Below are positions 30,938 through 52,806 of a stretch of 64,000 nucleotides of DNA, one piece after another. The stretch is from Alphaproteobacteria bacterium (GTDB lineage Bacteria > Pseudomonadota > Alphaproteobacteria > Bin65). Each line of letters starts with the position of its first letter. The stretch's first letter is position 1. The stretch covers positions 2,581,458-2,645,457 of the forward strand of contig OZ244899.1 of NCBI GenBank assembly GCA_965221645.1, in the 5' to 3' direction. A program made the position numbers and the translations under genes. The notes under the pieces are model-generated. The model did no database searches. It had not been told where the DNA came from and saw nothing but the letters and a program-made list of their open reading frames with translations.

Positions 30938-32140
30938 TCACGCGTCGTAGCGGCCTACGATGGAGACGCTGGAGACATTCTGGTGAGGGAATCCGCCCAG
31001 GTTGTGGGTCATGCCGATCCTGGGATCGGCCAGCTGACGCGCACCGGCACGACCCTGGAACTGCAGGTACATCTCGTACAGCATGCGCAGACCTGACGCG
31101 CCGATCGGGTGACCAAAGCATTTCAGGCCCCCATCGATCTGACACGGGATCCGGCCGTCCGAGTTGTAGAAACCGTCCAGGATATCTCTCCACGCAGTGC
31201 CTTCCTCGCTGAGATAGAGATCTTCCATCGTCACCAGTTCCGTGACGGAGAAGCAGTCATGCACCTCGAACATGCTGACTTCGTCGCGGGGCTTCCTGAT
31301 TTCTGCCTCCTTGTAAGCCCGCTCAGCTGCGCGGCGGGTCGTCATGAAATAACTCCCGTCCCAGCTATTGTGGCTGGCTTCCTGGCCATTGGACACGGCT
31401 AGCTGCAATGCCTTGACTGACACGATGTCCTTCTTGCCCATGCTTTTGGCTATTTGCGGCGTAGTTACGATCGCGGCGGCAGAGCCGTCCGATACACCGC
31501 AGCAATCGAACAGGCCCAGCGGCTCGGCTACCATCGGCGCGTTGAGAACCGTCTCGACAGTGATTTCCTTCTGAAGGTGTGCTTTCGGGTTCCTGGCACC
31601 GTTCTCGTGGCTCTTCACCGAGACCTGGGCCATTGCCAGTTTGAGATCATCGGCCTTCACGCCGTGCTTGGCTGAATAGGCTGTGGCGAGTTGGGCAAAG
31701 CTGCCTGGCGCCGACGCGTTAGGCCAGTACATGTCGGCCACGGCGCCGCGCATGCGCTGCGGCAGACCACCGTAGCCCGTGTCTTTCAGCTTCTCCACCC
31801 CAACGGCGATCGCCATGTCTGCCGCGCCGGACGCTACGGCGTAACAAGCGCCGCGGAAGGCTTCGGTCCCCGACGCGCAGTAGTTCTCGACCCGGGTGAC
31901 CGGTATGTAGGGGAGGCGCAAGCTGACTGCGAGTGGCACGCCGGACTTGCCGACATGCTGTTCTTCGATGGCTGTGGAAAACCAGGCTGCATCAATCTGG
32001 CTGCGTTCGATGCCCGCATCGTTCAGGCATTCCTCGACCGCTTCGACGATCAGGTCTTCGGCATTCATGTCCCACCGCTCGCCGAACTTCGAGCAGCCCA
32101 TACCCAGGATCGCCACTTCGTCCTTGATGCCACGGGGCAT
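30938..32140 (-). CDS. SCP-x-type thiolase
   Basis: VENYCASG (catalytic Cys), FEVHDCF, GHPIGASG, HNLGG. Confidence 0.9.
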   Translation of the reverse strand: MPRGIKDEVAILGMGCSKFGERWDMNAEDLIVEAVEECLNDAGIERSQIDAAWFSTAIEEQHVGKSGVPLAVSLRLPYIPVTRVENYCASGTEAFRGACYAVASGAADMAIAVGVEKLKDTGYGGLPQRMRGAVADMYWPNASAPGSFAQLATAYSAKHGVKADDLKLAMAQVSVKSHENGARNPKAHLQKEITVETVLNAPMVAEPLGLFDCCGVSDGSAAAIVTTPQIAKSMGKKDIVSVKALQLAVSNGQEASHNSWDGSYFMTTRRAAERAYKEAEIRKPRDEVSMFEVHDCFSVTELVTMEDLYLSEEGTAWRDILDGFYNSDGRIPCQIDGGLKCFGHPIGASGLRMLYEMYLQFQGRAGARQLADPRIGMTHNLGGFPHQNVSSVSIVGRYDA

Positions 32141-32610
32141 GTCAATGTCCTCGCATTCGTGTCTTTGTACCCAATCTATGTTTTGCGGAGTGTCAGGTGA
32201 AGCATTCTCGGACCTTTCGGGACAGATATCCTTGCCATCGGGATTTTCACAGTCGATCAGCGCTGTTTTCGTTGATTGACGTCAATCCTTCAGGCGACCC
32301 TTCCGGGAACCGGCATCGCGGTCGCGGTTACCGAATTCATCGCGGAGCAGCTTGCAGACACGGCGTCCGTTGCTGAAAATCAGGACAGACCTCAGATTTG
32401 TGCTCTCCGGTTTCTGCCACTCAGAGCGTTGGTGACGCAAGTCAAGGTTGCAGCCTGGCACATGCGACAACAGCCTTGATTGCTCGAAACGCGTCCCCTT
32501 CATCTTGACGTGCCGCGCTCCGAAGAAACCTGAATGACTGCTGCGTTTGAACCCGAAGGCCTGCAACTCTTTCCGCTTGCCCGGAATCACGTCCACGGAC
32601 GGATGAAATA

Positions 32611-33333
32611 TCAAACCGGCACGCCCAACGCTTCAGCCAGTTCCGGAAAGCTGTCCACTATGATGTCACAATCCGGATTTGCCGACGGATCGGGCGGGCC
32701 AGCTGGGCCCCATTCGTGAGGCCTGCGAACGAAAGCGGTTCTGAATCCGACAGCTCGAGCAGCATCCAGATCAAAGTTGTGGCAAGCCACCATGCAGCAT
32801 TCGCTGACGTCCATCTGCAGGTATTTTGCTACTGTCTGATAGCTTTCCGGAAGTATCTTGTATTTGCGGATTCCTTCGCAACTGAATACCGCATCCCACG
32901 ACAGGCCGTTCTTCTTCGCTGTATCCAGGATCAGCCGGTAAGACAGGATGGTGAAGCTGCAGACAAGATATTGCTCGCGCAGTTTCGGCTGGGTTGCCGG
33001 AAAGTCCGGCCAGCAGGTGAAATCATGGGGCGCTTCGTAGGCAATGGCGTGGATGTCCTCCGCCGTAAAGGCGTCCAGGTCATGTTCCTTGACCAGCGTT
33101 TCCAGGGTAAATCGGTGGGCGTCATCGAAAGTATAGGCAGGTGGCTCGTTCTCGCCGAGGTTGAGCATCGCGCCCAGGCTGCGCCGACGCAGGTCATTGG
33201 TGATTTCGGTCCAGTCCTTGTTGATTCCGTGCCGGGCACCGGCGCTGGCCAGTGCTGTCTTGAAGCCGGTGTGCCAGTCCAGGATGGTGCCTCCGGTATC
33301 AAAAGTGAGTGCCTTCACGCCAGAAAGGCTCAT
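32611..33333 (-). CDS. HAD-family hydrolase, haloacid dehalogenase type II-like
   Basis: LTFDTGGTILDW, MVACHNFDLDAA; ATG at 33333 overlaps upstream stop. Confidence 0.85.
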   Translation of the reverse strand: MSLSGVKALTFDTGGTILDWHTGFKTALASAGARHGINKDWTEITNDLRRRSLGAMLNLGENEPPAYTFDDAHRFTLETLVKEHDLDAFTAEDIHAIAYEAPHDFTCWPDFPATQPKLREQYLVCSFTILSYRLILDTAKKNGLSWDAVFSCEGIRKYKILPESYQTVAKYLQMDVSECCMVACHNFDLDAARAVGFRTAFVRRPHEWGPAGPPDPSANPDCDIIVDSFPELAEALGVPV

Positions 33334-34805
33334 GCGTTTTCTCCTGCAGTGTGGTCCGGTGTCGCTTTCCAGAAATACTTGATGAAGCCGCGTTTGTCGT
33401 CGACGCCACGGCGACGGAAGACCATTTTTACGGACATGCCGACTTCGACTTCGCCGGGTGAAACATCCGTCATGTCGGCCATCAGCCGTCCGCCTTCGTC
33501 GAACACCACCATGCCGAAATGGGCCGGTGGGTCTGGCGTATAGGTGAGGTTGTCCGCGGTCCAGCTTTGCACTGTTGCCGGGATCTCGGCGAAAGGGTGG
33601 GGGTCCTGGCTGTTGAACGCCCCGCAGTTCGGGCTGACGCATGCCCGGGTCTTGGGATATTGCACTGTCCCGCATGTTCGACATTTGCCGCCAACGAACC
33701 CCAGCACCATGTCACGATTGCGATAGAGTGCGCTGAGCGCCGTCGGTGCATCCAGCTCGGCCCGGATGCCGCGATCCTGGTCCAGCAGATTGTTGAAACT
33801 GAGATAACGGTTGTAGTTCGTTTCTTCCTTGCGTCGCGCCAGATAGCCCTTGACGCCCTGACGGGGCGACAGGGACAAGAGCGCTTCGGTTGTCCGAAAG
33901 ACCAGCACATCGCAGCCTTGGCCCCAGCCGATCACCACAATCGTCTGGCCCGGATCGGCGTCCTGCAGGCAATCTGCAAGCATCAGCAGCGGGTGAGCGG
34001 TTCCGGCGTGGCCTACCTGCGCCTGCAGGTTGTCACGCACAGTCCCGCTCGCGATTCCGGCGGCGGCAGCCACTTTTTGCGGCACGCCGCGAATGAGCGC
34101 CGGCATGATGAAGTGATCGACGGAGCCGCTGTCGATGCCGGTATCCTCCATCGCCGCCCGGATGGCGCGCGGGGCGATCTTGAAATAGCCTTCGTCCCGG
34201 ATCCAGCGTTCTTCCCAGTTGTAGTCATACTTGCTGTCGCTGCCACGGTAATGATCCACGAAGTCGATCGATAGCTGCGACCCGCCCAGATATTCGGCGA
34301 TCAGATCATTGCTGCCCACGGTGAAGGCTGCCGCCGCGTCTCCGAATTGCAGTTCCTGAGGGCCGGAGGTCTGCGTTCTCCGCTTGTCGGCAGTCACAAA
34401 CAGGGAGTCACCATTGGCGGCATTGCGCAGGGAATTCAGCACGCCGGACGTACCGGCGCGTTGCGATGCGGCAAAATCCATGGTGATGGTGGATTCGTCC
34501 AGATTCAGGGCTGTTGCCAAGATACCCGCATTTTGACGGTCGTCGAATGGCAAGGTGGTCGATGCAAACGTGACCCCGGCAATGGACGATGCCGAACCCT
34601 TGTCCAGACGCGCCGGCGTCAGGCAGTCCCGTGCAGCTTCCACCGCCATGGTCAGGCTGTCCTCGTCCCAGTTGCAGATCGCGCGCTCGCCCCTGGCCAG
34701 ACCCATGATCGCCGGATTGAACCATGCATTGGCTTCGGCTATCGCCTTTCGGCTCAGGCGGAGGCGTGGAATGTAGGCGCCGTAAGCTTTCAGTCCGACT
34801 GTCAT
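33330..34805 (-). CDS. HMG-CoA-synthase-like domain fused to DUF35 (Zn-ribbon/OB-fold)
   Basis: YGAYIPRLRL, DEDSLTMAVEAA, GDAAAA, GHAGTAH; C-terminal CRTC...CVSPNC and OB fold; SQRAG at the expected catalytic Cys position. Confidence 0.85.
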   Translation of the reverse strand: MTVGLKAYGAYIPRLRLSRKAIAEANAWFNPAIMGLARGERAICNWDEDSLTMAVEAARDCLTPARLDKGSASSIAGVTFASTTLPFDDRQNAGILATALNLDESTITMDFAASQRAGTSGVLNSLRNAANGDSLFVTADKRRTQTSGPQELQFGDAAAAFTVGSNDLIAEYLGGSQLSIDFVDHYRGSDSKYDYNWEERWIRDEGYFKIAPRAIRAAMEDTGIDSGSVDHFIMPALIRGVPQKVAAAAGIASGTVRDNLQAQVGHAGTAHPLLMLADCLQDADPGQTIVVIGWGQGCDVLVFRTTEALLSLSPRQGVKGYLARRKEETNYNRYLSFNNLLDQDRGIRAELDAPTALSALYRNRDMVLGFVGGKCRTCGTVQYPKTRACVSPNCGAFNSQDPHPFAEIPATVQSWTADNLTYTPDPPAHFGMVVFDEGGRLMADMTDVSPGEVEVGMSVKMVFRRRGVDDKRGFIKYFWKATPDHTAGENA

Positions 34806-34908
34806 GGTGTTCGTCTTGCTCCTCCGACGCGATCTGTTCTGTCTGATTTGGGCTGTCATTTCCCTTCTGGCACAGGGCCGGGTCAGGCTGCCGTGACCGG
34901 GCAAGTGG

Positions 34909-35703
34909 CTAGCCGCCGCTAGCCTTGCGAAAAACCGGCTTCTGCTTGTTCAGGAAGGCCTCGAATCCGATCCTGGTTTCTTCATCCCGGAAAGATTCGG
35001 TGATGAACCCGGCCTCCATGTCAAGTTGCTCTCCGAAGCTGTTGCCAGGTGCGGCTTCGATCAGTTTCTTGATCCGGCGGATAGCGTTCTGTGGCCCGTC
35101 GGCCAGGCGGCTTGCAATTGCCATTGCATCCTCCAGCGCGCTCCCGGGTTCGCTCAGGCGGTTGATCACGCCATGGCGATGCAAGGTTTGAGCTTCCACC
35201 GGATCGCCGAACAGGCACATCTCTGTTACCATCTGGCGAGGCAACAGGCGCATCAGCGAGGCTGTCGCACCGCCATCGGGGCTAAGCCCGATCTTGACGT
35301 AGGCGACCACAAACCGCGCTTCGCGCGAGGATATGATCAGGTCGCACGAAAGCGCCAGCGAGACGCCGGCGCCGGCGGCCACCTTCTCGACCGCTGCAAT
35401 GACAGGCTTGGGGCAGGCGCGGATCGCCTTGATCCAGTTGTGCAGTTGACCGATCGAGGCCATCGAGACCGAACAGGGTTGGGTGCGGCGGCGTGGAAAA
35501 TTGCCCACGTTGCCGCCGGAACAGAAGACGCCGTTGGCTCCGGTCAGAATGATCGCCCGGATGTCGGGGGCCGATCCGGCGTCGATGATGGCTGGCGTCG
35601 CCTTTTCATAGATATCTTTGGTTATGGCGTTCCGGGTTTCCGGGTCGTCGAGAGTCAGGACCATGACATCGTCCTGACGGTCGATATGGATGTCAGCGGG
35701 CAT
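34909..35703 (-). CDS. Enoyl-CoA hydratase/isomerase family protein
   Basis: FCSGGNV, KPVIAAVEKVAAGAG, GLSPDGG. Confidence 0.9.
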   Translation of the reverse strand: MPADIHIDRQDDVMVLTLDDPETRNAITKDIYEKATPAIIDAGSAPDIRAIILTGANGVFCSGGNVGNFPRRRTQPCSVSMASIGQLHNWIKAIRACPKPVIAAVEKVAAGAGVSLALSCDLIISSREARFVVAYVKIGLSPDGGATASLMRLLPRQMVTEMCLFGDPVEAQTLHRHGVINRLSEPGSALEDAMAIASRLADGPQNAIRRIKKLIEAAPGNSFGEQLDMEAGFITESFRDEETRIGFEAFLNKQKPVFRKASGG

Positions 35704-35876: not shown

Positions 35877-36977
35877 TCAGATGCGACCTTCGGCAGACGG
35901 ATAGTCGTTGATACCCAGATCCTCGCGGAAATCAGATGACATTTCGGCCTTGGCTTCTTCCAGGGGTATGCCGGTTGCATCGGCGATCTTCACGACGGCA
36001 TCGTAGATCGCCAGCACACCCGCGGCATCGACCAGCGCGGCGTTGCCAATTTCCCGTCGCAGCGCCTCGCGGGCCATCGGAAAAGCCGCTCGCTCCGCAA
36101 AGAAAGTGTCGGCGAAACATGCCAGCGCCGCGCCGGCAACGACCCCGGCAGAACTGCCGTCGCCCTCCACGATAGCGGTCAGGTCATAGTCATTCCCAGT
36201 ATGTTCGCCGCTCCCACGGAGCAAAACCGCATGACTGGTGGTTCAGTAGACGCATTGGTTTATGGCGGATACACGCGCCGCCAGGAATTCCGTTTGGGCA
36301 TGGGTCAAGTCACGGTATTCGACCCCGAAATCCCTCAGTTTGGTGTCGGGAAGGTACTGGACCTTGTCCAGATCGAAGAAGCCGACCACCTCGCCTGGTA
36401 CCAGGCTCAGCGCCCGGTGGATGTTGACGCCGGCAAGACCATCGTACATCCCGGCTTCGGCTTCAGTGACGTCTTCCGGCGCCACGGTCGGGACCCATGC
36501 CAGACCGTCCCTTGCGCCCTCGGGTCGATGCCGCGATGGCGCGCCGTCGACGGGTTCAGGCAGGTCATGACGCGGAAGTCCCATCGCATCGCAGAAACTG
36601 TCGACGGCGACTACTGTCGCAAGGACACCAATGGCTTCGACGTAGTGGCCGTCTGTCACGCCATCGGCGATGGCGTCGTCAAAGAACTTGCGGGTCAGGC
36701 GACCGGCATCAGTACGGGTCCGGTGGACGACCTCAATCAGCGCCGCCGGAAGATCCGTGACCGAGGTATGCTCTCCGGAAACCGCATATGGAGACAGGGC
36801 GGCTTTTCGTTCCATGCACAACGTGCAGGTTGGCGCAGCCCGGGCTTCCTGCGCCATGGCGACGCGCTCGGCGCCCGTGAACCAGGTGCCTGGCCGCGCA
36901 AGTCGCCGCCAGGCGCGCTGATGGGCATCAGCGAGATCGGCACGAACTGGCATGGGGCTGTGGTCATATCCAATCAT
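35877..36977 (-). CDS. AhpD-like alkylhydroperoxidase-related protein, probable selenoprotein (UGA at 36243-36245 read as Sec; 366 aa)
   Basis: ORFs 36243..36977 and 35877..36224 are in the same frame; junction reads VSAINQ-C-V-Y-[TGA]-T-T-S-H-AVLLRGS, matching the AhpD CxxCxxxH motif. Confidence 0.8.
36203..36227 (-). ncRNA. Candidate bacterial SECIS hairpin
   Basis: mRNA GUU-UU-GCUCC-GUG-GGAGC-GGCG-AAC; G-first apical loop begins 25 nt after the UGA. Confidence 0.6.
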
Positions 36978-37090
36978 GGTCGGTGCCTTCTCTCCATCGC
37001 GGCGGGTTACGAGTTGCCGTTATACGGATGCTTAATCGGGTTCATGCCCATGTCGGAAGGATTTTGCTCCAGCAGTCGCTGTCAAGCTGT

Positions 37091-38449
37091 TTATGCCGCG
37101 GTCAGCCATTCGTCAAAATCCGTCAGTGCTCGTGTCGCCAGGGCGTGCCTGCGGTCGCGTCCCTTCAGGCGCTTGCCGCTGGATTCCGGTGGTGGCATGA
37201 GGCCGAAATTGATGTTCATCGGCTGGAATGTCTCGGCGTCTGCCCCGCCGGTTATGTGGCGCAGCAAGGCGCCCAGCGCCGTCGTTTCCGGTGGCGAAGT
37301 GAATGTCTCCTTCAACCGTTCCGCTGACGCCATGCGGCCGGCGAGAAGGCCGATGGCAGCGCTCTCCACGTAACCCTCGACGCCAGTGATCTGCCCTGCA
37401 AAGCGAAGCCGCGGGTCGGCGCGAAGGCGCAGCTGTCCGTCCAGAAGCTTCGGGCTGTTCAAAAAAGTATTGCGGTGGATGCCGCCAAGCCGGGCGAACC
37501 GTGCGTGTTCCAGGCCCGGAATCGTTCTGAAGACTGCAGCCTGTGCGGCGTATTTCAGTTTGGTCTGGAAACCGACCATGTTGAACAGCGTGCCCAGGGC
37601 GTTGTCCTGGCGCAGTTGCACCACCGCATGCGCCTTTCCGCCTGTATGAGGGTTGGTCAGACCGACCGGTTTCATGGGGCCATAACGCAAGGTTTCCCGG
37701 CCGCGGGCCGCCATCGCCTCGATCGGCAGGCAACCTTCGAAAAAAGGTGTGTCTTTCTCCCAGTCCCTGAAGTCGGTCTTGTCACCGGCGAGCAGTGCGT
37801 CGATGAAGGTGTTGTACTGCGCTCCGTTCATGGGGCAGTTGATGTAGGCCTTGGCGTTGCCCCCAGGACCGGGCTTGTCGTAGCGCGATTGCCGCCAGGC
37901 AATGCTTTCGTCGATCGAGTCAGCGTGGACAATGGGCGCGATGGCGTCGAAGAAGGCCAGCGCATCTTCACCAGTGAGTTCCAGAACGGCCTTCGACAGG
38001 GCCGGCGACGTCAGCGGGCCGGTAGCCACGATCACACTGTCCCAATCTGGCGGGGGACGGCCGGCCACTTCGCGACGTTCGATCGTGACCAGCGGATGGG
38101 CCTCCAATGCCCTTTGGACTGCTTCTGCGAAGCCGGTCCGGTCCACGGCCAGCGCGCCGCCAGCCGGCACCTTGTGAGCGTCGGCTGCGGCGAGAATCAG
38201 GGAACCTGCGCGCCGCATCTCCGCATGCAGGACGCCGACTGCATTGTATCCGGCATCGTCCGATCGGAAGGAATTGGAGCATACCAGCTCCGCCAGGATC
38301 TCGGTCTGATGGGCATCCGTTCCGCGAACCGGACGCATTTCATGAAGGACGACCGATACGCCGGCCTGCACGGATTGCCACGCCGCCTCGCAACCGGCCA
38401 GGCCACCCCCCACGACGTGAATGGGCGGCAGAGCGGAAAACGTGTTCAC
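37091..38449 (-). CDS. trmFO: tRNA m5U54 methyltransferase TrmFO
   Basis: [56 protein letters not shown]. Confidence 0.95.
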
Positions 38450-38459
38450 CGGCTCGGAT

Positions 38460-40565
38460 TCAGGCCGCCAGCGCGGCGACATCCTGTACCGGCGGCGGTG
38501 CGAAGCGCGCGCCGTGAGCGTCTGCCAGGGCCGCGCATTCGTCGGCAAAGGACTCGACGCCGACCTGATTTACCCAAGAAAGCACACCACCGGTATACAT
38601 CGGGAATCCCCAGCCCAGAATCGATCCGACATCGGCGTCGGCCCGGTCCGTCACAACGCCTTCCTCCCGACAGCGCAAGGCTTCCAGCGCCTGGATATGC
38701 AGCAGCCGGCGTTTGATGTCGCCGGCTTCCGGTTGGATGGCGGCGCGGTCGAAGTGTTCGGACAAGCCTGGCCACAGGCGTTTCCGGTCGTCTTCCGGCC
38801 AGTCATAGAAACCCTTGCCCGCCTTTCGTCCCGGGCGATTCAGGGTCTCGACGAACAGTTCGATGACGTCTTCGGCGGGGTGCCCTTCGTAGGCGTCGCC
38901 CAGATCCTCCTGCCACTGGCGGCGGACGCTCAGCAAGAGGCTGAGGCTGGTATTGTCCACGACCTCCAGCGGGCCGACCGGCATGCCGGCAATCCTGGCC
39001 ACGTTCTCGATCAGGGCGGGCGTCACGCCCTGCTTCAACATGGCGATGCCTTCCATCACGAAGGAGGCGAATACGCGACTGGTGAAGAAGCCGCGTCCGT
39101 CGTTGACGACGATGGGCGTCTTGCCGATCGCCTGGACGTAATCCAGGGCCTTTGCGACGGTTTCGTCGCTGGTTTTGTCGCCCCGGATGATTTCGACCAG
39201 TGGCATCTTTTCAACCGGCGAGAAGAAATGAAGGCCGACGAAGTTCGCAGGACGGGTGCTGGCTTCCGCCAGACCGGTGATCGGAAGGGTTGACGTGTTG
39301 GAAGCGAAAACGGCGTCGTCGGCAATCCTGGCTTGAGCCTTTGCCGTGACGTCGGCCTTGAGCGCGCGGTCTTCGAACACCGCTTCGATAATCAGGTCGC
39401 TTCCGTCCAGCGTGTCATAATCGGCCGAAGCCGTGATGCGGTTCATCCGGGCAGCCAGGGTCTCTTTCGTCATCCGTCCCTGCCCGACCCGTTTTTCCAG
39501 CGGCGCGGCTGCGCGGAGTTTTCCTGCCTCGGCGCTTTCCCGATCCACGTCCATGAGGACAACGTCCATGCCCGCGCCGGACGAGACTCCGGCGATTCCG
39601 GCCCCCATCATGCCAGCACCCAGAATGCCCAGTTTGCCGACCCTGGATTTCGGCACGCCATCGGGCCGGGTCTTGAGCTTGCGGGCGTTGGCCATTTCGA
39701 AAAAACCGGTGCGCACCATCGCCTTGGTCACCGGGCTCCGGATCATGTTGACGAGATACTTGCTCTCCACGCGCAGCCCGACGTCGATGCTGGTCTGGCA
39801 GCCTTCGTAGACGCAGGACAGGATCGCCTGCACCGCAGGATAGTTTCCGAAGGATTTCTCGCGGCCCATGGCATTGGCGGCGGGAAACAGCTGCAAGCCT
39901 GCGGGGCCTTGCACCGCCCCACCCGGAATTCGGAACCCTTTCCGGTCCCATGGCTGGGTTGCATCCGGATTGTCGAGCGCCCATTGCCTGGCCACCGCCA
40001 TCGACTCGCCCGCGGGCGCGATCTGGTCGATCAGGCCCATCTTGTGAGCAGCGTCTACCGTGTATTTCCTCCCGTCCAGCAGCATTTTCAGCCCGGCCTG
40101 GAGGCCCAGCATCCGCGGCACCCGTTGTGTTCCGCCGCCGCCGGGCAAGACGCCAAGCGTGACTTCGGGCAGACCGACTCGTGTCTTCGGATTGTCTACC
40201 GCGACCCTGTAGTGACAGCACAGGGCTGTTTCGAAACCGCCGCCCAGCGCGTGTCCGTTGATCAGCGCCACGAATGGCTTGCCGCCGGTTTCCATGAGCC
40301 GGCCCAGCCTGTCGAACATCAGGAACTGGGGCAGGATCTCGTCGACCGTGCGATCTTCCAGGAACGTGTCGAGATCCGCACCAGCGATGAAATCGTCCTT
40401 GCCCGACGTCACGATCACACCCCTTGCCGCGTCATCGGCCACGGCTTTCTCCACTTCCTGCCGGAACAGGTCCATGGTCGTTTCGTTCATGACGTTGACC
40501 GGTCGGTCGGGAATATTCCATGTGATCGTGGCGATGCCGTCAGCATCAAGGGTGGTTTCGATCAT
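38460..40565 (-). CDS. Fatty-acid oxidation multifunctional enzyme (ECH + 3-hydroxyacyl-CoA dehydrogenase; FadB/FadJ-like)
   Basis: [38 protein letters not shown]. Confidence 0.93.
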
Positions 40566-45737: not shown

Positions 45738-46268
45738 CTATTCCAACAAGTCGCCGAAGCTGTCGAGATTGAGGCGAAAGCGATGCTGATCAGACCATTC
45801 ATGCTTCATGCGATCGGCCTCCTCAACGTCAAGCAGATCTTGGCGGATCATCCATACGACCAGATCCTGCGTTGTCACGATGTGGAGCGACGGCGCGAAA
45901 CGACTTGCCAGCCGCTTGGCGACACGGTCATCAATGGCCAACGTGTATCTACGCTGGACTGCGACGGCGATCGCGGAACACTCACCTGCGCCGAGGCGTC
46001 CGGTGGCTGATAGGGAGGCGAAGAGGCGGAGTTCGTCAGCGGCGGCAACGGGAATGAGGGTCAGGGCCCCGGAATCGAGGGCGGAAACGAAGCGTCGCTG
46101 TTGATCGGGATATCGATCCGATACTTCGTTGGCAACATGGTCGGTGGCGAGGAAAGCATGGGAATGGCCGGCGATCAGATCGATCCTGTCGATGCGCAGA
46201 AAGTTGATCAGGACCGAGGCGTCGGTGACGATGATCCCCGACCGATCAAGTTCGGAGGAATCGCTCAA
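45738..46268 (-). CDS. PIN-like domain protein
   Basis: IVTDASVLINF, LGAGECSAIAVA, LAIDDR; overlaps upstream stop by 4 nt. Confidence 0.8.
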   Translation of the reverse strand: MSDSSELDRSGIIVTDASVLINFLRIDRIDLIAGHSHAFLATDHVANEVSDRYPDQQRRFVSALDSGALTLIPVAAADELRLFASLSATGRLGAGECSAIAVAVQRRYTLAIDDRVAKRLASRFAPSLHIVTTQDLVVWMIRQDLLDVEEADRMKHEWSDQHRFRLNLDSFGDLLE

Positions 46269-47497
46269 TTGCCCCGAGCCACTTCGGCAAGACTGAGTAG
46301 GCTGTCGCCGTCGATCCTCAGTATCTTGCCCATTTCGAGGACGCGTCCGCGCGAAATCTCCTCACGACGGTAAGCCTCGATGGCGAGATGGGCAATTTCA
46401 CTTCGGAGTTCGCGATCCCAGTATCTCTTCCTTTCCGGCTCCCCGACCTCGCTGTACATACAGAGAGCCTTCAGGTATTTGCGGCCGAAGTCTTCTTGAT
46501 CCAGGAGGCTCCGACATTCCCTGTTGGAGATATATCGGAGGCTCTTGAGACGGTAGGACGCGGCCTGATAGCTCACTCCGAAGTGGTGGGCGAGCATGGC
46601 GTTGTCCTTGTAGGTAATGCGTTGTGAACGTGCCGGAGGGCGCTGCGCCGCCTCGATGTGCCCCCCGCTCGCGGCGTCGAAGATGGCGTGATCAAGGCGG
46701 CTTGGCAGGCCCTTGTCGAGGGTTCTCAGGAAATCACGAAAGCCGCCCCTGGGCATCAGAAAGGCAGCGGCAAAGGCGTTCGCGCGCTTTTCGATCAGTT
46801 GGGAAGAGTTGTCGGTGCTGGAGATCGTTATGTCTCGATTCCGGTCGAGCAGAGCGTGCGCGTATTCATGCGCGTAGGAAAAGCGCTTTCGGCCTCTGGG
46901 ATGGGTCGAGTTGACAAAAACCGCAAGGCCGATACTGACATGACGGAGAAACAGGCCGGACATTCCATCCGGCAACGCAACCCCGGATGCCCAAATGCCC
47001 TGGGATGCGATGAGTTCGGAGACATCGGCTATGGGGGCGTTCCCCATGCCGAGGCGTCGCCGCTCTTGTTCCGCGGCCTGCTCGCCGTGGGAGATAGCTT
47101 CGCCTGGAGAACGTGGCATACGCGAATCGTATCTCGGCGGGCCGGAGCGGGGCTCAGCGCCGAGGAGACGTTCGAGGATGACGCCTTCCCGGCAAAGATG
47201 GACGCAGCGTGCCACCTGCTCCTGGGTGGCCGGATCCTGCTCAAGGCCGGGAGCCGCGCGATGCAAGGCAACGAGAACGTCGTCGTCTTCCGCTGGGTCC
47301 TGCAGGAAATCGGCGATGCGGCGCTGGTAGAGCTCCGATAGTGCGGTCAGTTCCAGCGTCGAGACCGACCGGTTGCCCGCTTCCAGTTGGGTGATGGCCG
47401 TTCGAGCAAGGCCCAATGCCTGGGCGGCATCCTGCTGACTGAGGCCGCGCGTTACGCGGGCCGTGCGCAATCGGCGTCCCAAGGTCTCCGCATCCAT
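46265..47497 (-). CDS. XRE-HTH fused to ImmA/IrrE-family metallopeptidase
   Basis: LGRRLRTARVTRGLSQQDAAQALGLARTAITQLEAG; RFSYAHEYAH (HExxH), EKRANAFAAAFLMP, HFGVSYQA; GAGG before MDAET. Confidence 0.92.
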   Translation of the reverse strand: MDAETLGRRLRTARVTRGLSQQDAAQALGLARTAITQLEAGNRSVSTLELTALSELYQRRIADFLQDPAEDDDVLVALHRAAPGLEQDPATQEQVARCVHLCREGVILERLLGAEPRSGPPRYDSRMPRSPGEAISHGEQAAEQERRRLGMGNAPIADVSELIASQGIWASGVALPDGMSGLFLRHVSIGLAVFVNSTHPRGRKRFSYAHEYAHALLDRNRDITISSTDNSSQLIEKRANAFAAAFLMPRGGFRDFLRTLDKGLPSRLDHAIFDAASGGHIEAAQRPPARSQRITYKDNAMLAHHFGVSYQAASYRLKSLRYISNRECRSLLDQEDFGRKYLKALCMYSEVGEPERKRYWDRELRSEIAHLAIEAYRREEISRGRVLEMGKILRIDGDSLLSLAEVARGN

Positions 47498-47569
47498 GGT
47501 TCGTTCCTCCCTCAGCAGAAACCGCGACAAGCGGCGTGAGAACGTAACTCTGCTATATCGAACGCCAAA

Positions 47570-47612
47570 TGTCAAAATAAAACATTGACAGATCGATGAT
47601 CGTACATATGAT
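47570..47612 (+). promoter_or_regulatory. Sigma70-type promoter of CBASS operon with palindromic TGTCAA-N9-TTGACA
   Basis: TTGACA (47585-47590)-N16-TATGAT (47607-47612); inverse copy TGTCAA at 47570-47575. Confidence 0.7.
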
Positions 47613-47687: not shown

Positions 47688-48812
47688 ATGAGCGAAGCCC
47701 CTCCACCCCCTCTCAGGGCTCTGAGCCTGAACGGCGGCGGTATGCGCGGCATCTACACAGCGGCCTTTCTGGACCATCTGCTGTCGCAGCACGCCAAACG
47801 CACCGGCTAGGGGCGGCTGGACCTGGGCCGCGGAATCGACCTGATTTGCGGGACAAGCACGGGTGCGATCGTTGCTTGTGCCGTGGCGGTCGGTTGTCCG
47901 CTTGATCGCGTGGTGGATCTCTATCGGCAACACGGGGCGGCGATATTTCCTCATCGCATCACCGGGTACCGGAGCATTGCATACCGCGCCTTCAGTGGAC
48001 GGCGGTTCGTACGGGCGGGAGACCAAGCCCTTCGATCCGCTTTGACCGAGGTGTTGGGCGAAATCACGGTGGCTGATGTATTCGACAAGCGTGGCATTTC
48101 CCTATCGGTGCCCGCGGTCGACATGTCGACGCATCGGTCCTGGGTCTTCAAGCGGACGCCGGTCAGCGGTGTGCGCGACGACGATTTCTCGCTGGTTGAT
48201 GTGTGCATGGCTTCGAGCGCCGCACCGATCTTTCGATCGTTGGCGGACGTTGGCGACCCGAACAGCGATCGAGGCGCCCGCAAGGTCTTCGCGGATGGAG
48301 GTCTGTGGGCAAACAACCCCGTGCTGGTGGCCCTGACTGACGCAATGGCGATGGCTGAAGAGGATCAGCCGATTGAAATATTCTCGTTGGGGACATGCCC
48401 CCGGCCCGTAGGTGAACACATTCGAGGCGATGACGTTCACAGGTCGCTCCTCGGGTGGAGGTTCGGCGCCGATATGGGTCCCCTTTCGATCTCGGCACAG
48501 GAGTTCGCGTACGACAATATCGCGCGGCTCTTGGGAAACGAGCTTTCCAAACAGGGGAGAAGCGTGCGGGCGATCAGGTTTCCCCGGAAGAATGTGCCGG
48601 CAAGCATGATGCCGTTCCTGGCGCTCGACGATACGCGGGAGGAGGCAATGGACCGCCTGGTTGAACAGGCAGGCTCGGATGCCGATTTGACGAAGAGCGC
48701 CTGTGACGATCCGGAATGCCGGGATGGCGGAACGATCAGGTCGCTTCTTGAAAGCCTTACGCCAGCTGACCCCGGCCGGCTTTTGTACAACCAGGGCGTA
48801 CAAGATGGATAG
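47688..48812 (+). pseudogene. capV: Patatin-like phospholipase (CapV-like CBASS effector) interrupted by in-frame TAG at 47808-47810
   Basis: One frame reads SLNGGGMRG...KRTG*GRLDLG...GTSTG...ADGGLWANNP; directly upstream of the CD-NTase. Confidence 0.85.
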
Positions 48813-48827
48813 CACACCAAGTGAACC

Positions 48828-49892
48828 TTGAACTGGAGAGAACAGATGATTGATTGCGGTGCGGACGTGAAGGCGTTTCATGACGAGAAGGTCACGTTGC
48901 CTGGTTCCGAACAGGACAGGATGAGAGAACGAAGAAACTCGAATCGCGACAGATTGAAGAGGAACCTCGAAAAGGACGAGAAGCCTGCGCCGTACGAGCA
49001 TGTGTCCCAAGGAAACTACCAAATGAAGACGACGCTTCGGGACGAGAACAACGACTACGACATTGATGATGGGGCATATTTCAAGAAGGGCATTCTCGTA
49101 GGAGATCGTGGTGCGGAAATGTCGTCGCTTGACACGCGCAAAATGGTCCGAGACGCGATGGATGACGGGAGCTTCAAGACGCCACCGGAGGTCAAGGCGA
49201 ACTGCGTCCGCATCCACTATTCCACAGGGTTCCATGTGGACATTCCAGTCTACCGCCAAATCGTCAATGAGGATACTGACGAAACGTATTATGAACTCGC
49301 GGCCAGTTCCGGATGGAAGCGTTCGGATGCGAGAGATGTGACCAAGTGGTACGAAGAGACGCGCAACGGAACTACGGATGCCGACCAACTCCGGCGCCTG
49401 AATCGGTATCTCAAGAAGCATGCGAGAAGCCGAACGAGCTGGAAGTCCCGCAATCTCAGTGAATTCTCGATCACGGTACTGCTCGGCGAGACTTGCGTTC
49501 TCAGCCCGGATCGGGATGACATAGCCCTGTATCGCACGATGGAGGCGATGAAGAGGCGTCTGGACGGCAATACCGTAATCGACCATCCGGTTACGCCAAA
49601 TGAAACCGTCACGACGGACGACCCTGACGCAAAGGCATGTTTTTTAAGGGAAAAGTTGAAGGAAGCGCTGGACCACCTCGCGCCGGTATACGCGGACGAT
49701 TGCAACAGGGAATCGGCGCTGAAATGCTGGGACAAGGTGTTCGATACAACCTTCTTTTCCGAACAATGCGAAGACGAGAAGGCGAAAAGTGCATCGCTTT
49801 CTGCCCCGGCAATCGGTTCGGCTGCGATACTCGGGTCGACGGTCGCATCTGCCTCTTCGGTGAGTGCGAGGGGCGGCGGACGGCATGCGTGA
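48828..49892 (+). CDS. cGAS/DncV-like nucleotidyltransferase (CD-NTase)
   Basis: SQGNYQMKT..DYDIDDGAYF, FHVDIPVY, WKRSD, C-terminal tail GGGRHA; true start may be MIDC at 48846. Confidence 0.9.
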   Translation: MNWREQMIDCGADVKAFHDEKVTLPGSEQDRMRERRNSNRDRLKRNLEKDEKPAPYEHVSQGNYQMKTTLRDENNDYDIDDGAYFKKGILVGDRGAEMSSLDTRKMVRDAMDDGSFKTPPEVKANCVRIHYSTGFHVDIPVYRQIVNEDTDETYYELAASSGWKRSDARDVTKWYEETRNGTTDADQLRRLNRYLKKHARSRTSWKSRNLSEFSITVLLGETCVLSPDRDDIALYRTMEAMKRRLDGNTVIDHPVTPNETVTTDDPDAKACFLREKLKEALDHLAPVYADDCNRESALKCWDKVFDTTFFSEQCEDEKAKSASLSAPAIGSAAILGSTVASASSVSARGGGRHA

Positions 49893-51738
49893 TGCGACAT
49901 TCCCTGTCGAGGGAATGGTGGAACACGAGCGTGCGATACTCGAGGTAACGCAACGTCTTCGGGAGCATACGGAAGGCACGGCGATCCGCATTGATAACGG
50001 GGCGATCGCAACGATCTATCGGACAAGGAATTTCGCCGATGGATGGCGGATCCCGGTTGCGTTCTCCGACGGCAAGACGCGGAACATCGACCTGCTCGTC
50101 TCGCTCTTTTTTCCGCGCTGCGCGCCCCGGGCGGCTCTCGTCGACCGTCCGGAGTACCTGATCTGGCCGCATATCGAGCGCGACGGCGTTCTGTGTCTTC
50201 TCCCCAATTCCAGCGAGATCGATCCGACGACGCCGGGTGAGGTGGCGCTCGCGATCCTGAACCGGGCCGTTCGACTGGTGGAAGAACTCATCGAGAGTTC
50301 GATTGTCGAGCGCGACTTCAAGCAGGAGTTTCTCACCTACTGGTTCTACGCGCGTCAAGAGGCCGGCAAGAACGTAGTAATTCTGTGCGAACCGGTGGGT
50401 CCGTCCCGAGTGCTCAAGCGCTTCACGTGGGAGGGGAAGGTTTACGTTGGCGAGAATGTGCCATCGCTTCGGCAGTGGACGGACCGGAGGTTTGGAGCGC
50501 GAGCGGCGGCAAAGGCTGCGAAGACCGCGAAGCCGGCGGCGTTCATTTGGTTGCAGGAGCCGCCCCTACCGAACGAGTATCCCGAGCACGGATCCGACAT
50601 CCTGGCGCTGGTGTCCGGGCGGGGCGAAGATGCGGTCGAAATCCTCGCCGAAGCGGCCTCAGCTGGTGATGACGAGTGTCTGGTGCTTCTCGGGGCGGAT
50701 GGGCGTGGCGGCGCGGGTGTGGTCGCGGTCCGCATTGACCGCAACCGTAGTCAGAGGACGGGAAACCCGCGAGCCAGGGACAAGATACACCGCGGCTTTC
50801 GCGCCGGCCACCTTCCGCCGGCAGTCGCCATGGAACCGACCTATGGGCGTAACGAGATCCGACGTGCTGAGGTCGAAAGGGCTGATGCGGCGTGGGTACA
50901 TGGGAGAGGACAAGAGGCTCGTAGTCGTATCCTGCTCGAAAAGTCTGTCACGGTCTTCGGCTGCGGCTCGGTCGGGTCGTTCGTGGCCCAAAGTCTGGCG
51001 CGAGCGGGTGTCGGAAGGCTGTGCCTAGTAGATTTCGATAAATTGAGCTGGGCGAACGTGGGGCGCCATGCGCTTGGCGCAGATTCTGTTGGGCATAAGA
51101 AAGCAGAGGCGCTGGCGGAGAGATTGCAGCGTGAGTTTCCGCATCTTCAGTTTGAAGGGCAGAACTCGACGATCGAAGCCGTTCTGTTTGCCGACAGAGC
51201 GCGGCTGCTCTGCAGCGACCTGATTGTGTGCTTGACGGGGAATTGGGTAGCCGAGTCTGGGTTGGACGACTGGCACGTGAAATCTGGTCTCGACAATGCG
51301 ATTCTGTACGGTTGGACGGAGGATCATGCCGTTGCCGGGTCAGCGGTCGTAATCGCGCCCAAGGGTAGGTGCCTCGCGTGCGGAATAGATCGCACAGGGA
51401 CGCCGCTGTTGACTGCGGTGGATTGGCCGGATGGACGCGAGGCGCGTACGGAGCCTTCCTGCGCGGATCATTACCAGCCGTATGGCGCGATCGAACTGTC
51501 CTATATCACCACGATGATTGCGAACACGGTGATCGACGAGCTGCTCAACGCGTCGGAGACGTCCTACCGAAGAATTTGGGTTTCTGGAAGGCAGGCCGAA
51601 TATGGGGGAACGATCGGCAAGACGTTTATGGAGGCTCTCGGCGGTAGAGAAATGGAGAACGGGATCGTGACTCTCGCCTGGGGGAACCAGGCATGTGCGT
51701 CATGCAAGGAGCGCGGAAGAAAGACAACACACGAATGA
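49885..51738 (+). CDS. cap2: CBASS Cap2 (E2-like + E1/ThiF-like)
   Basis: WPHIERDGVLCL (E2 Cys); GCGSVGS, VDFDKL..NVGRH, CLAC, EPSCADHYQPYG, C-terminal CASC. Confidence 0.88.
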   Translation: MRDATFPVEGMVEHERAILEVTQRLREHTEGTAIRIDNGAIATIYRTRNFADGWRIPVAFSDGKTRNIDLLVSLFFPRCAPRAALVDRPEYLIWPHIERDGVLCLLPNSSEIDPTTPGEVALAILNRAVRLVEELIESSIVERDFKQEFLTYWFYARQEAGKNVVILCEPVGPSRVLKRFTWEGKVYVGENVPSLRQWTDRRFGARAAAKAAKTAKPAAFIWLQEPPLPNEYPEHGSDILALVSGRGEDAVEILAEAASAGDDECLVLLGADGRGGAGVVAVRIDRNRSQRTGNPRARDKIHRGFRAGHLPPAVAMEPTYGRNEIRRAEVERADAAWVHGRGQEARSRILLEKSVTVFGCGSVGSFVAQSLARAGVGRLCLVDFDKLSWANVGRHALGADSVGHKKAEALAERLQREFPHLQFEGQNSTIEAVLFADRARLLCSDLIVCLTGNWVAESGLDDWHVKSGLDNAILYGWTEDHAVAGSAVVIAPKGRCLACGIDRTGTPLLTAVDWPDGREARTEPSCADHYQPYGAIELSYITTMIANTVIDELLNASETSYRRIWVSGRQAEYGGTIGKTFMEALGGREMENGIVTLAWGNQACASCKERGRKTTHE

Positions 51739-51834: not shown

Positions 51835-51939
51835 TCAATACTCGCCTTTCTCAAACAGCGCGCGAATCTCGCCTTCGCACGCCGCGAAAGACTCTCGGCC
51901 CACGTCGAAAATTGCTTTCAGTTTTTCTACATCGCTTTC
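51835..51939 (-). pseudogene. Orphan C-terminal fragment cut by IS630
   Basis: Open frame ESDVEKLKAIFDVGRESFAACEGEIRALFEKGEY* begins exactly at the IS end; family unknown. Confidence 0.35.
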
Positions 51940-52806
51940 TATTGTCCTGATTCCCAAGTTTTGCTGATTTTCTTTTGGCATTCTGCGGTATCCAGGGTAC
52001 GCAGGCAGAAGCGTTTGATGGTAGCGAGGATGTCGTCTGCCGACCTGGTCCAGCGAAAGGGTCTGGGGTTGGCGTTGACGGTGTCGATATGGTCTCGGAT
52101 GGCCTGTTCAAGTTCCCGGGTCGCGCGATGGACCCCGCGCCGGAGCTGCTTTTCGGTCAGGGCGGCGAAGAAGCGCTCGACCTGGCCAGGCCGCATGGGC
52201 AGCAACGGCTGGGTGCGGTCGCGCGCCTGGATCTGGCTCTTTTCGTCGACGCAGAGCACCAGCGTGCGTTCGGGCGGGTCGAGACAGAGGCCTGTGATGT
52301 CGCGTACCTTGTCGACGAACAGCGGGTCCGCCGACAGCCTGAAGGTCTCCGAGCGATGCGGCTGCAGGCCGAAGGCTTGCCAGATCCGGTGGATCGTCGA
52401 CGGCGCAGGCTCCAATGCGTGGCCCCGGGCGGCGTCTCTTCCAAGGTGCGGGCGATGATCTCCGCGATCTCCTCGTCGCCGATCTGGCGCGGCGCCCCGG
52501 AACGCGGCGCGTCGCAGAGCCCGTCGAGCCGGTGCTCGGCAAACCGCCGGCGCCATTTGCCGACCGTCGTCGGGTCGCTCCCCACAATCTCCACGATCGC
52601 CTTCTTCTCCAGACCTTCCGCAGCCGCCAGAACGATCCGGGCACGTCGCGCCAGACCCCGGGCCGTCTTGCGCCGGCCCGCCAGACCTTCCAACGCGCGC
52701 CGCGCCGCTTCCGACAAGCTGATCGCAACCGCTACCCTGCTCAACAGTCATCCCTCCAATACAACCAAACATACTTGTTCCAGCAAACCTCTCGATCAGG
52801 ATACTA
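51940..52806 (-). mobile_element. Degenerate IS630-family element (frameshift plus internal deletion)
   Basis: TA-terminated ends sharing TCCTGAT; N-terminal HTH RARIVL..VGKWRRRF..PRSG, then VLCVDEKSQIQA joined almost directly to VERFFAALT..RPFRWT. Confidence 0.88.

What the first reader, a model, noticed from the sequence alone, without database searches (positions are those of the whole stretch)
35877..36977. Hidden selenoprotein: AhpD-like gene with CxxU motif and SECIS-like hairpin
Seen: two track ORFs share a frame and are separated only by TGA at 36243-36245. The junction reads C-V-Y-[TGA]-T-T-S-H, and a stem-loop GCUCC-GUG-GGAGC with a G-first loop starts 25 nt downstream. Established: AhpD-like proteins use CxxCxxxH, bacterial SECIS elements lie just 3' of the UGA, and AhpD-like selenoproteins are known from marine bacteria. 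Inference: one 366-aa Sec enzyme that standard callers would split. An extra N-terminal CxxC (CTLC) suggests a second redox or metal site.
Basis: partly seen in the sequence, partly recalled or inferred. Interest (0 to 1): 0.8.

Follow-up and report, generated by a model that had tools for sequence, protein, structure and literature searches.

The report
Known AhpD-related selenoprotein gene, split by callers

Summary
Observation confirmed. On the minus strand, 36977..35877 is one frame interrupted only by TGA at 36245-36243. The junction reads C-V-Y-[TGA]-T-T-S-H, and a GUG-loop hairpin lies 25 nt downstream.

Interpretation supported.
- The read-through protein matches NCBIfam NF041238, [quoted passage not shown], end to end (462 bits, cut-off 175).
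- Of 83 related loci from several phyla, 81 carry TGA at this column and 2 carry Cys. Similarity continues to the C-terminus.
- dN/dS after the TGA (0.19) equals that before it (0.185).
- The hairpin meets the published bacterial SECIS rules, shows compensatory changes, and freezes synonymous codon choice at L253, R254 and S256.
- Four independent sequencing runs carry the identical TGA.

A 2026 review equates NF041238 with "hypothetical protein 1" of the 2005 Sargasso Sea selenoproteome, so this is not new.

Small additions:
- Sec forms far outnumber Cys forms.
- The N-terminal CxxC is present in 52 of 59 sequences. It aligns onto the CxxU motif, which suggests a tandem AhpD-like duplication.
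- There is no conserved gene neighbour.

Not testable here: whether selA, selB, selC and selD exist elsewhere in the genome. None lies in the window.

The parts
35877..36977 (-). Complete selenoprotein CDS: 366 residues plus the terminal TGA at 35879-35877. ATG at 36977-36975.
   Evidence: NF041238 matches residues 11-360 to profile positions 1-356 of 357. tblastn matches residues 1-366 in 13 genomes.
36986..36995 (-). Shine-Dalgarno-like GGAGAGAAGG, 8 nt upstream of the ATG
   Evidence: Read directly from the sequence. No functional test.
36558..36950 (-). N-terminal helical domain (about residues 10-140), probably a degenerate second AhpD-like repeat
   Evidence: hhalign of residues 32-139 against 223-342 gives E=1.2e-3. 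The AF2 model of residues 1-244 has pLDDT 88.4. Foldseek top hits are AhpD-core structures but weak, with prob 0.97-0.66 and E 0.2-1.2. Pfam finds nothing in this domain.
36816..36827 (-). N-terminal CxxC (C51-T-L-C54)
   Evidence: CxxC in 52 of 59 distinct homologues, SxxC in 2, deleted in 5 divergent ones. It aligns with C242/U245 in the internal hhalign comparison.
35943..36410 (-). C-terminal AhpD/CMD-like domain (about residues 190-345), which carries the active site
   Evidence: Pfam CMD PF02627 scores 26.5 bits against a cut-off of 23, on residues 220-258. phmmer to PDB 6k40 (AhpD) and 2oyo covers residues 223-337. The Foldseek top hits for the model of Cys homologue P0241 are 2prr, 3c1l and 6k40.
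36231..36290 (-). Active-site signature E230-x11-C242-V-Y-U245-T-T-S-H249
   Evidence: E230, C242, U/C245 and H249 are present in 59 of 59 sequences. The segment aligns to NRCVYCAVSH of PDB 6k40.
36243..36245 (-). UGA read as selenocysteine (residue 245)
   Evidence: TGA in 81 of 83 homologous loci and TGT/TGC in 2. Four runs carry the identical sequence.
36208..36224 (-). bSECIS upper stem-loop: 7-bp stem UUGCUCC/GGAGCGG with apical loop GUG, which starts 25 nt after the UGA
   Evidence: Covariation: 92.5% of cells paired, 4 pairs with changes on both sides, 0 of 500 shuffles reach this. Synonymous-codon entropy is 0.12, 0.42 and 0.59 bits at L253, R254 and S256, against 1.5-2.1 bits at other six-fold Leu/Arg/Ser sites.
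36196..36238 (-). Extended, interrupted lower helix of the minimum-free-energy fold (CCAGU...ACUGG). Only weakly conserved.
   Evidence: -16 kcal/mol for the 61-nt stretch. The lower pairing differs between clades.

Best explanation
Window 36977..35877 (minus strand) is a single gene for a 366-residue selenoprotein of the curated family NF041238. [quoted passage not shown]

During translation, the hairpin at 36224-36208 lies inside the coding sequence for L-L-R-G-S-G and has its G-U-containing apical loop 25 nt after the UGA. It is bound by the SelB-GTP-Sec-tRNA(Sec) complex, so UGA 245 is decoded as selenocysteine instead of stop. This step is inferred from the standard bacterial mechanism.

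The product has two helical domains. The C-terminal domain is an AhpD/CMD fold with the signature E230-x11-C242-x-x-U245-x-x-x-H249. U245 takes the place of the second Cys of the AhpD CxxC. In M. tuberculosis AhpD that residue is the attacking nucleophile (my own knowledge, not tested here). The likely chemistry is that the selenolate attacks an oxidised substrate (a peroxide, or a protein or small-molecule disulfide or sulfenate), C242 resolves the intermediate to a selenenylsulfide, and a thiol reductant regenerates the enzyme. The N-terminal domain looks like a diverged copy of the same fold. Its CxxC (C51/C54) may pass electrons on or bind a metal.

Shown: one conserved reading frame, UGA/Cys correspondence, a conserved structured RNA, and family and fold assignment. 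Inferred: Sec insertion itself, the catalytic cycle, and the role of the N-terminal CxxC. Substrate and partner are unknown.
For: Family:
- NF041238 scores 462 bits against a cut-off of 175, full length.
- A 90%-identical relative is named '(seleno)protein' by NCBI.
- A review table maps NF041238 to hypothetical protein 1, motif CxxU, first described in the 2005 paper.

One gene:
- 13 of 13 genome loci and 81 of 83 loci in all have TGA at the same column, with similarity continuing to residue 366.
- Two loci and proteins P0241 and P0244 have Cys there and are full length.
- dN/dS after the UGA is 0.189, against 0.185 before it, for window versus L001. It is similar in other pairs.
- Both halves score as coding.

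SECIS:
- The published rules are a loop of 3-9 nt, a stem of 4-16 bp, G in the first two loop positions, spacing of 16-37 nt, and MFE of -7.5 kcal/mol or lower.
- Here the values are loop GUG, a 7-bp stem, spacing 25 nt, -7.9 kcal/mol for the 22-nt core and -16 kcal/mol for 61 nt.
- 70 of 72 distinct Sec homologues satisfy the geometric rules, at spacing 24-27 nt.
- Covariation is shown and synonymous-site freezing.
- One Cys form (L091) has lost both the hairpin and the LLR motif.

Not an error or a code change:
- Four runs carry the identical sequence.
- TGA is the stop codon of 34 of 51 ORFs in the window.

Fold:
Against: No selA, selB or selD, and no tRNA-Sec, lies in the 64-kb window or in any of the 94 loci held. 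The rest of the genome could not be read, so the host's ability to decode Sec is inferred, not shown.

No Rfam family matches the hairpin. Taken alone, the hairpin is neither unusually stable (z = -0.37) nor rare.

The covariation test is done on a coding region, where amino-acid constraint also limits variation. Two of the seven pairs never vary.

The AhpD-like nature of the N-terminal domain rests on weak scores: hhalign probability 19% with E = 1.2e-3, Foldseek E of 0.2 or more, and no Pfam hit.

No partner gene is conserved nearby, so substrate and reductant are guesses.
Confidence: 0.93

Rival explanations
1. Nonsense pseudogene: a former Cys codon (TGY) mutated to TGA and the gene is dead.
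For: A single in-frame stop at a Cys position is what a TGY>TGA mutation would give. Gene callers report two fragments.
Against: The same TGA is present in 81 of 83 homologues from Alpha- and Gammaproteobacteria, Gemmatimonadetes and others, at 34-90% identity. The downstream part is under the same purifying selection as the upstream part. It has no further stops or frameshifts in any locus.
Confidence: 0.01
2. Two separate genes: a 244-aa protein that ends at TGA and a 115-aa protein that starts at TTG 36224.
For: The ORF list and public gene calls give exactly these two products.
Against: Residues 246-251 (TTSHAV) lie between the TGA and the first possible start. They are among the most conserved in the family and include the invariant H249 of the CxxCxxxH motif. 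Cys-containing relatives are single 380- and 434-aa proteins. PDB AhpD domains align across the junction. The TTG lies inside the hairpin and has no ribosome-binding site.
Confidence: 0.01
3. UGA is read through by something other than Sec, either near-cognate Trp/Cys insertion or a reassigned genetic code.
For: The Sec machinery was not observed.
Against: TGA terminates 34 of 51 ORFs in the window, so the code is standard. The position aligns with a catalytic Cys. A hairpin with SECIS geometry is conserved precisely here and is lost in Cys form L091. The family is already catalogued as a selenoprotein.
Confidence: 0.03
4. Assembly or sequencing error created the TGA.
For: None specific.
Against: Contigs from four runs of at least three studies match 36100-36400 with zero differences. 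The TGA is shared by 81 other loci.
Confidence: 0.005

Closest known systems
NCBIfam NF041238, AhpD_rel_CFYUT, 'alkylhydroperoxidase-related (seleno)protein'. This is 'hypothetical protein 1' of the Sargasso Sea selenoproteome (Zhang, Fomenko & Gladyshev 2005, PMC1088965; mapping in PMC13188914).
   Same: Full-length HMM match far above the cut-off. Same C-x-Y-U-T motif, same length (about 357-366 aa), a CxxU redox motif, and a SECIS directly after the UGA.
   Different: Nothing of substance. The window has CVYUT rather than CFYUT, and both occur in the family. It is an ordinary member.
AhpD-like selenoproteins (AhpD-like 1, COG2128/TIGR01926; AhpD-like 2/CMD, PF02627) of marine metagenomes (PMC1088965, PMC2398784)
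   Same: AhpD/CMD fold, a CxxU motif with Sec at the second position, and occurrence in marine bacteria.
   Different: Those families are listed under single AhpD/CMD-domain models (COG2128/TIGR01926, PF02627), and solved peroxidase-related proteins of that type are about 190 aa. They have many Cys homologues (299 Sec against 902 Cys in GOS). This protein is about 366 aa with an extra N-terminal domain, scores only 30 bits on TIGR01926 against a cut-off of 81.8, and is almost always the Sec form (81 of 83 loci).
Mycobacterium tuberculosis AhpD (TIGR00777) and structurally solved AhpD-core proteins (PDB 6k40, 2prr, 3c1l, 2oyo)
   Same: E-x11-CxxCxxxH signature and helical fold.
   Different: TIGR00777 scores 16.8 bits against a cut-off of 192. 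No ahpC or any other conserved partner is nearby. Sec replaces the second Cys. There is an additional N-terminal domain.
Sestrin2 (PDB 5dj4, 5t0n), a eukaryotic protein built from two AhpD-like halves
   Same: Two helical AhpD-like halves in one chain of about 360-390 residues. Weak whole-length Foldseek hits (TM about 0.4, prob up to 0.92).
   Different: RMSD is about 16 A and E is 0.17 or more. There is no sequence similarity. Sestrin has no Sec and no CxxC pair of this kind. This is a resemblance of architecture only.

Membership tests
Bacterial selenoprotein gene (UGA-Sec plus bSECIS) | In-frame UGA at a position occupied by Cys in homologues | tested here: met
   L065 (TGT), L091 (TGC), P0241 and P0244 have Cys. 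PDB 6k40 has CVYC at the aligned position.
Bacterial selenoprotein gene (UGA-Sec plus bSECIS) | The reading frame continues past the UGA and is conserved as protein | tested here: met
   Similarity runs to residue 366 in 13 genomes. dN/dS is 0.19 downstream and 0.185 upstream.
Bacterial selenoprotein gene (UGA-Sec plus bSECIS) | bSECIS model: loop of 3-9 nt, upper stem of 4-16 bp, G in the first two loop positions, 16-37 nt from the UGA, MFE of -7.5 kcal/mol or lower (PMC13188914) | tested here: met
   Loop GUG (or C-GUG-G), 7-bp stem, spacing 25 nt, -7.9 kcal/mol for the core and -16 kcal/mol for 61 nt. 70 of 72 homologues meet the geometric rules. Covariation is shown.
Bacterial selenoprotein gene (UGA-Sec plus bSECIS) | The genome encodes selA, selB, selC (tRNA-Sec) and selD | not testable with these tools
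   None is in the window or in the loci held. The rest of the roughly 4-Mb genome could not be fetched.
Bacterial selenoprotein gene (UGA-Sec plus bSECIS) | Selenium demonstrably incorporated (75Se labelling or mass spectrometry) | not testable with these tools
   Requires an experiment.
NCBIfam NF041238 (AhpD_rel_CFYUT) | Whole-protein HMM score above the curated cut-off, over the full length | tested here: met
   462 bits against 175. Residues 11-360 match profile positions 1-356 of 357.
NCBIfam NF041238 (AhpD_rel_CFYUT) | C-[FVL]-Y-U-T motif | tested here: met
   CVYUT in the window. CVY, CFY, CLY and others occur across the loci.
AhpD/CMD superfamily (PF02627) | Pfam CMD domain above the gathering score | tested here: met
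   26.5 bits against 23, residues 220-258.
AhpD/CMD superfamily (PF02627) | Core signature E-x11-C-x-x-C-x-x-x-H | tested here: met
   E230, C242, U245 and H249 are present in 59 of 59 sequences. The TIGR00778 core-domain model scores just below its cut-off, 26.5 against 27.8.
AhpD/CMD superfamily (PF02627) | All-helical AhpD fold | tested here: met
   The AF2 model of Cys homologue P0241 has pLDDT 88. The top PDB matches are 2prr, 3c1l and 6k40, with target TM 0.65-0.73 and prob 1.0.
Bona fide AhpD (TIGR00777; reductant of AhpC) | Equivalog-level HMM score and genomic association with ahpC | tested here: not met
   TIGR00777 scores 16.8 bits against 191.95. No conserved neighbour was found in 85 loci. 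The window neighbours are TrmFO and beta-oxidation genes.
Tandem AhpD-like (sestrin-type) architecture | Both halves recognisably AhpD-fold | tested here: inconclusive
   The C-terminal half is clear. For the N-terminal half, hhalign gives E = 1.2e-3 with probability 19%, Foldseek gives prob 0.66-0.97 but E of 0.2 or more, and Pfam gives no hit.

The most novel reading that the evidence does not exclude
This family is an almost obligately Sec-dependent enzyme built from two AhpD-like domains. The diverged N-terminal copy keeps its own CxxC and acts as a built-in redox relay or metal site for the CxxU centre, so no separate partner gene is needed. This architecture and this degree of Sec dominance are not described in any paper I searched or read in the held library.
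Probability: 0.3. Interest if true: 0.4.

Novelty: already known. Interest (0 to 1): 0.2.

Why it matters
For annotation: the window's public gene calls split this gene into two 'hypothetical' fragments with no Pfam hit. Several hundred relatives listed in the three protein searches are truncated in the same way. Correct annotation restores one selenoenzyme and marks the organism as a Sec user. The organism is probably a sponge-associated alphaproteobacterium.

For biology: it adds nothing new in kind. The family, its CxxU motif and its SECIS were reported in 2005 and are curated as NF041238. The modest additions here could guide a first biochemical study of a family whose function is still unknown. 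They are near-exclusive Sec use, a likely internal duplication with a second CxxC, strong RNA-level constraint on the LLR-x-S codons, and the absence of a conserved partner.

Tried and rejected
- Rfam scans found nothing, either at gathering score over the whole window or at E up to 10 on 36150-36300. None of the 4227 Rfam families matched this hairpin.
- Single-sequence folding of the hairpin is not significant (z = -0.37). I therefore relied on comparative evidence.
I modelled Cys homologue P0241 and the window's own residues 1-244 instead.
- A first MAFFT alignment that mixed N- and C-terminal fragments (A4) placed the C-terminal fragments on the N-terminal domain. I discarded it for structure prediction, but it prompted the internal-repeat test.
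- The search for conserved neighbours found none. Only an enoyl-CoA hydratase is shared, and only among close relatives.
- Regex and ARAGORN searches for SelD, SelB, SelA and tRNA-Sec in the window and in 94 loci found nothing.
- A scan for other in-frame TGAs with coding signal on both sides found only this gene as a credible case. The other four hits are antisense or overlap artefacts within 14.1-18.0 kb and were not pursued.
- Literature searches for 'CFYUT' and 'alkylhydroperoxidase-related' returned no papers.

Full report
**1. What is in the sequence**

The feature lies on the minus strand. The ORF listing gives two ORFs in the same frame, 36243..36977(-) of 244 aa and 35877..36224(-) of 115 aa. 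Translating 36977..35877 gives 366 residues plus the terminal stop, with one internal stop. That stop is TGA at 36245-36243, and the junction reads ...RVSAINQCVY-TGA-TTSHAVLLRGSGEH.

After the TGA come 20 nt, then GCUCC-GUG-GGAGC. With two G-U pairs the stem reaches 7 contiguous pairs (36224-36208). The apical loop starts 25 nt after the UGA.

**2. Is the hairpin more than chance?**

Taken alone, it is not. The 61-nt fold is no more stable than shuffled sequence (z = -0.37). 37% of all TGA triplets in this 61%-GC window are followed by a hairpin of at least 5 bp with SECIS-like geometry, and 8.8% by one of at least 7 bp. The case therefore rests on comparison with relatives.

**3. Family**

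With U written as C, the read-through protein matches NCBIfam NF041238, 'AhpD_rel_CFYUT, alkylhydroperoxidase-related (seleno)protein'. This is an equivalog model. The score is 462 bits against a cut-off of 175 (E = 1.4e-138), over profile positions 1-356 of 357.

Pfam sees only a short CMD match (PF02627, residues 220-258, 26.5 bits against 23). Against PDB sequences, residues 223-337 align with AhpD-type proteins 6k40 and 2oyo. There, NRCVYCAVSH aligns with NQCVY-U-TTSH, so U245 sits at the second Cys of the CxxCxxxH motif.

**4. Relatives**

- A search of 5.8 billion proteins with the full-length query returned 120 listed hits that cover only 57-67% of the query. Nearly all are 244-269 aa long and stop at ...C-x-Y.
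- A profile of the post-UGA part returned hits that are nearly all fragments of 83-132 aa. One of them (P0215, 90% identical) is named 'alkylhydroperoxidase-related (seleno)protein, partial' by NCBI.
- Thirteen loci from GTDB genomes match residues 1-366 or nearly so. They are MAGs of Alphaproteobacteria, Gammaproteobacteria, Immundisolibacterales and Gemmatimonadetes, several with sponge-type isolate names. All thirteen have TGA at the same column.
- Eighty metagenome loci at 34-69% identity extend this. Of the 83 loci that contain the motif region, 81 have TGA and 2 have Cys (L065 TGT, L091 TGC).
- A search with Cys form L065 found two full-length Cys proteins (P0241, 380 aa; P0244, 434 aa). 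The other 118 listed hits were again truncated Sec forms.

That criterion is not met, so the hypothesis survives it.

**5. The region after the UGA is translated**

- By the Nei-Gojobori method, window versus L001 gives dN/dS of 0.185 for residues 10-244 and 0.189 for residues 260-360. Other pairs behave alike.
- Both halves have positive codon-usage scores.
- This is the only credible TGA in the window with a coding signal on both sides.
- TTSH, including the invariant H249, lies between the TGA and the first possible restart codon.

**6. SECIS**

A gapless alignment of 67 distinct UGA+45 nt sequences (A3) has an invariant core, CUC-CGU-G-N-GAG. For the 7-bp helix (columns 21-27 with 33-39):

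- 92.5% of cells are paired, against 35-57% when the partner is slid by 1-3 columns.
- Four pairs show changes on both sides, for example C-G to A-U or G-C, and G-C to A-U.
- None of 500 shuffles reaches the observed covariation.

Because this is coding sequence, I also measured synonymous codon choice at conserved residues. Six-fold-degenerate Leu, Arg and Ser elsewhere in the gene have 1.5-2.1 bits of codon entropy. L253, R254 and S256 have 0.12, 0.42 and 0.59 bits, being CUC in 58 of 59 sequences, CGU in 54 of 59, and AGC or AGU only. That is an RNA-level constraint exactly on the hairpin.

The published bSECIS model is quoted from PMC13188914. Its rules are a loop of 3-9 nt, a stem of 4-16 bp, G in the first two loop positions (typically N1-G-[G/U]-N-N2), 16-37 nt from the UGA, and MFE of -7.5 kcal/mol or lower. 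The window meets them with C-GUG-G, 7 bp, 25 nt, and -7.9 kcal/mol for the core or -16 kcal/mol for 61 nt. 70 of 72 distinct Sec homologues meet the geometric rules, at spacing 24-27 nt.

Cys form L091 has neither the hairpin nor the LLR motif. L065 keeps a remnant.

**7. Not an artefact**

Contigs from four public runs match 36100-36400 without a single difference. TGA is the stop codon of 34 of 51 ORFs in the window, so the genetic code is standard.

**8. Architecture**

- AlphaFold2 on Cys homologue P0241 gave pLDDT 88.3 and pTM 0.89, all helical.
- Its best PDB matches are AhpD-core proteins 2prr, 3c1l, 6k40 and 2pfx (target TM 0.54-0.73). There are weak whole-length matches to the two-domain Sestrin2.
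- A profile-profile comparison of the family's N-terminal part (residues 32-139) with its C-terminal part (223-342) gives E = 1.2e-3. It places C51-x-x-C54 on C242-x-x-U245.
- A model of the window's own residues 1-244 (pLDDT 88.4) again finds AhpD-core structures first, but weakly (prob 0.97-0.66, E of 0.2 or more).
- Pfam sees nothing in the N-terminal domain.

A tandem duplication of the AhpD fold is therefore likely but not proven.

The N-terminal CxxC is present in 52 of 59 distinct sequences, is SxxC in 2, and is deleted in 5 of the most divergent. E230, C242, U/C245 and H249 are present in all 59.

**9. Context**

- No neighbour is conserved across 85 loci.
- In the window the gene sits between trmFO (GIDA family) with a FadB-like gene on one side, and an enoyl-CoA hydratase, a ChsH2-like gene and a thiolase on the other.
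- No tRNA of any kind lies in the window, and none of the ORFs looks like SelA, SelB or SelD.
- None of the related loci carries tRNA-Sec.
- The rest of the genome could not be reached, so the Sec machinery remains untested.

**10. Mechanism**

Shown:

- one reading frame
- a UGA at a catalytic-Cys position
- a conserved, structured element at SECIS distance
- an AhpD-type active-site signature

Inferred from the established bacterial pathway (SelA, SelB, SelC and SelD; PMC13188914):

- SelB-GTP-Sec-tRNA(Sec) binds the apical loop and delivers Sec to UGA 245.

Inferred from AhpD chemistry (my own knowledge of M. tuberculosis AhpD, where the second Cys of CxxC is the nucleophile and Glu and His form a proton relay):

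- U245 attacks the oxidised substrate.
- C242 resolves the intermediate to a selenenylsulfide.
- A thiol donor, possibly the N-terminal CxxC, recycles the enzyme.

Substrate and partner are unknown.

**11. Comparison with what is known, and novelty**

AhpD-like CxxU selenoproteins were described in the Sargasso Sea and GOS metagenomes (PMC1088965, PMC2398784). [quoted passage not shown] The 2005 paper reports that family with four Sec sequences, a CxxU motif and a predicted SECIS.

The window gene is an ordinary member of that family. It is not a bona fide AhpD: TIGR00777 scores 16.8 bits against 192, and there is no ahpC nearby. It is also not the single-domain AhpD-like 1 type: TIGR01926 scores 30 bits against 81.8.

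**Verdict**

Interest is low. What remains is a mis-annotation worth fixing, and a family whose function is still unstudied.

Noticed in passing
window 47883-51738 (+), with 46265-47575 (-) beside it: A CBASS-type anti-phage cluster. It has a patatin-like phospholipase (47883-48812), a DncV-like CD-NTase (48828-49892) and a Cap2-like fusion of a prokaryotic E2 domain with ThiF/E1 (49864-51738). An HTH plus IrrE/M78 peptidase regulator gene lies next to it on the other strand.
   Followed up: partly
window 30938-35703 and 37091-40565 (-): The selenoprotein gene sits inside a run of lipid and beta-oxidation-type genes: a thiolase, a ChsH2-like OB/zinc-ribbon protein, an enoyl-CoA hydratase and a FadB-like hydratase/dehydrogenase. 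trmFO is also there. Only the enoyl-CoA hydratase neighbour is shared, and only with close relatives.
   Followed up: partly
window 36201-36269: In three of the runs that hold the window sequence, a second, different contig (8.6-22.5 kb) matches only these 69 nt, with 8 differences. It is probably the homologous gene of another organism in the same samples. Nucleotide-level similarity between the two is confined to the CxxU codons and the SECIS core.
   Followed up: no
loci L075, L080, L082, L085, L088: A divergent clade (34-38% identity) keeps the UGA, the SECIS and E-x11-CxxUxxxH but has lost the N-terminal CxxC segment. The second redox site is therefore dispensable in some members.
   Followed up: partly
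locus L065:1561 and locus L091:3740: These are the only two Cys-codon members among 83 loci. L065 still has a 5-bp hairpin remnant at SECIS spacing, which may indicate a recent change from Sec to Cys. L091 has none, and the LLR motif is replaced by MYQ.
   Followed up: partly
loci L002, L003, L004, L008 (about 130-200 nt upstream of the gene) and L005 (about 1.7 kb upstream): A tRNA-Pro(TGG) gene lies on the opposite strand upstream of the selenoprotein gene in this alphaproteobacterial clade. It is absent from the window.
   Followed up: no
window 53142-53570 (+) and 51939-52772 (-): ORF translations here look like transposase fragments, with IS5-like wording in the 142-aa ORF. Together with the CBASS cluster, this part of the window may be a mobile or defence island. 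It was not checked against any library.
   Followed up: no
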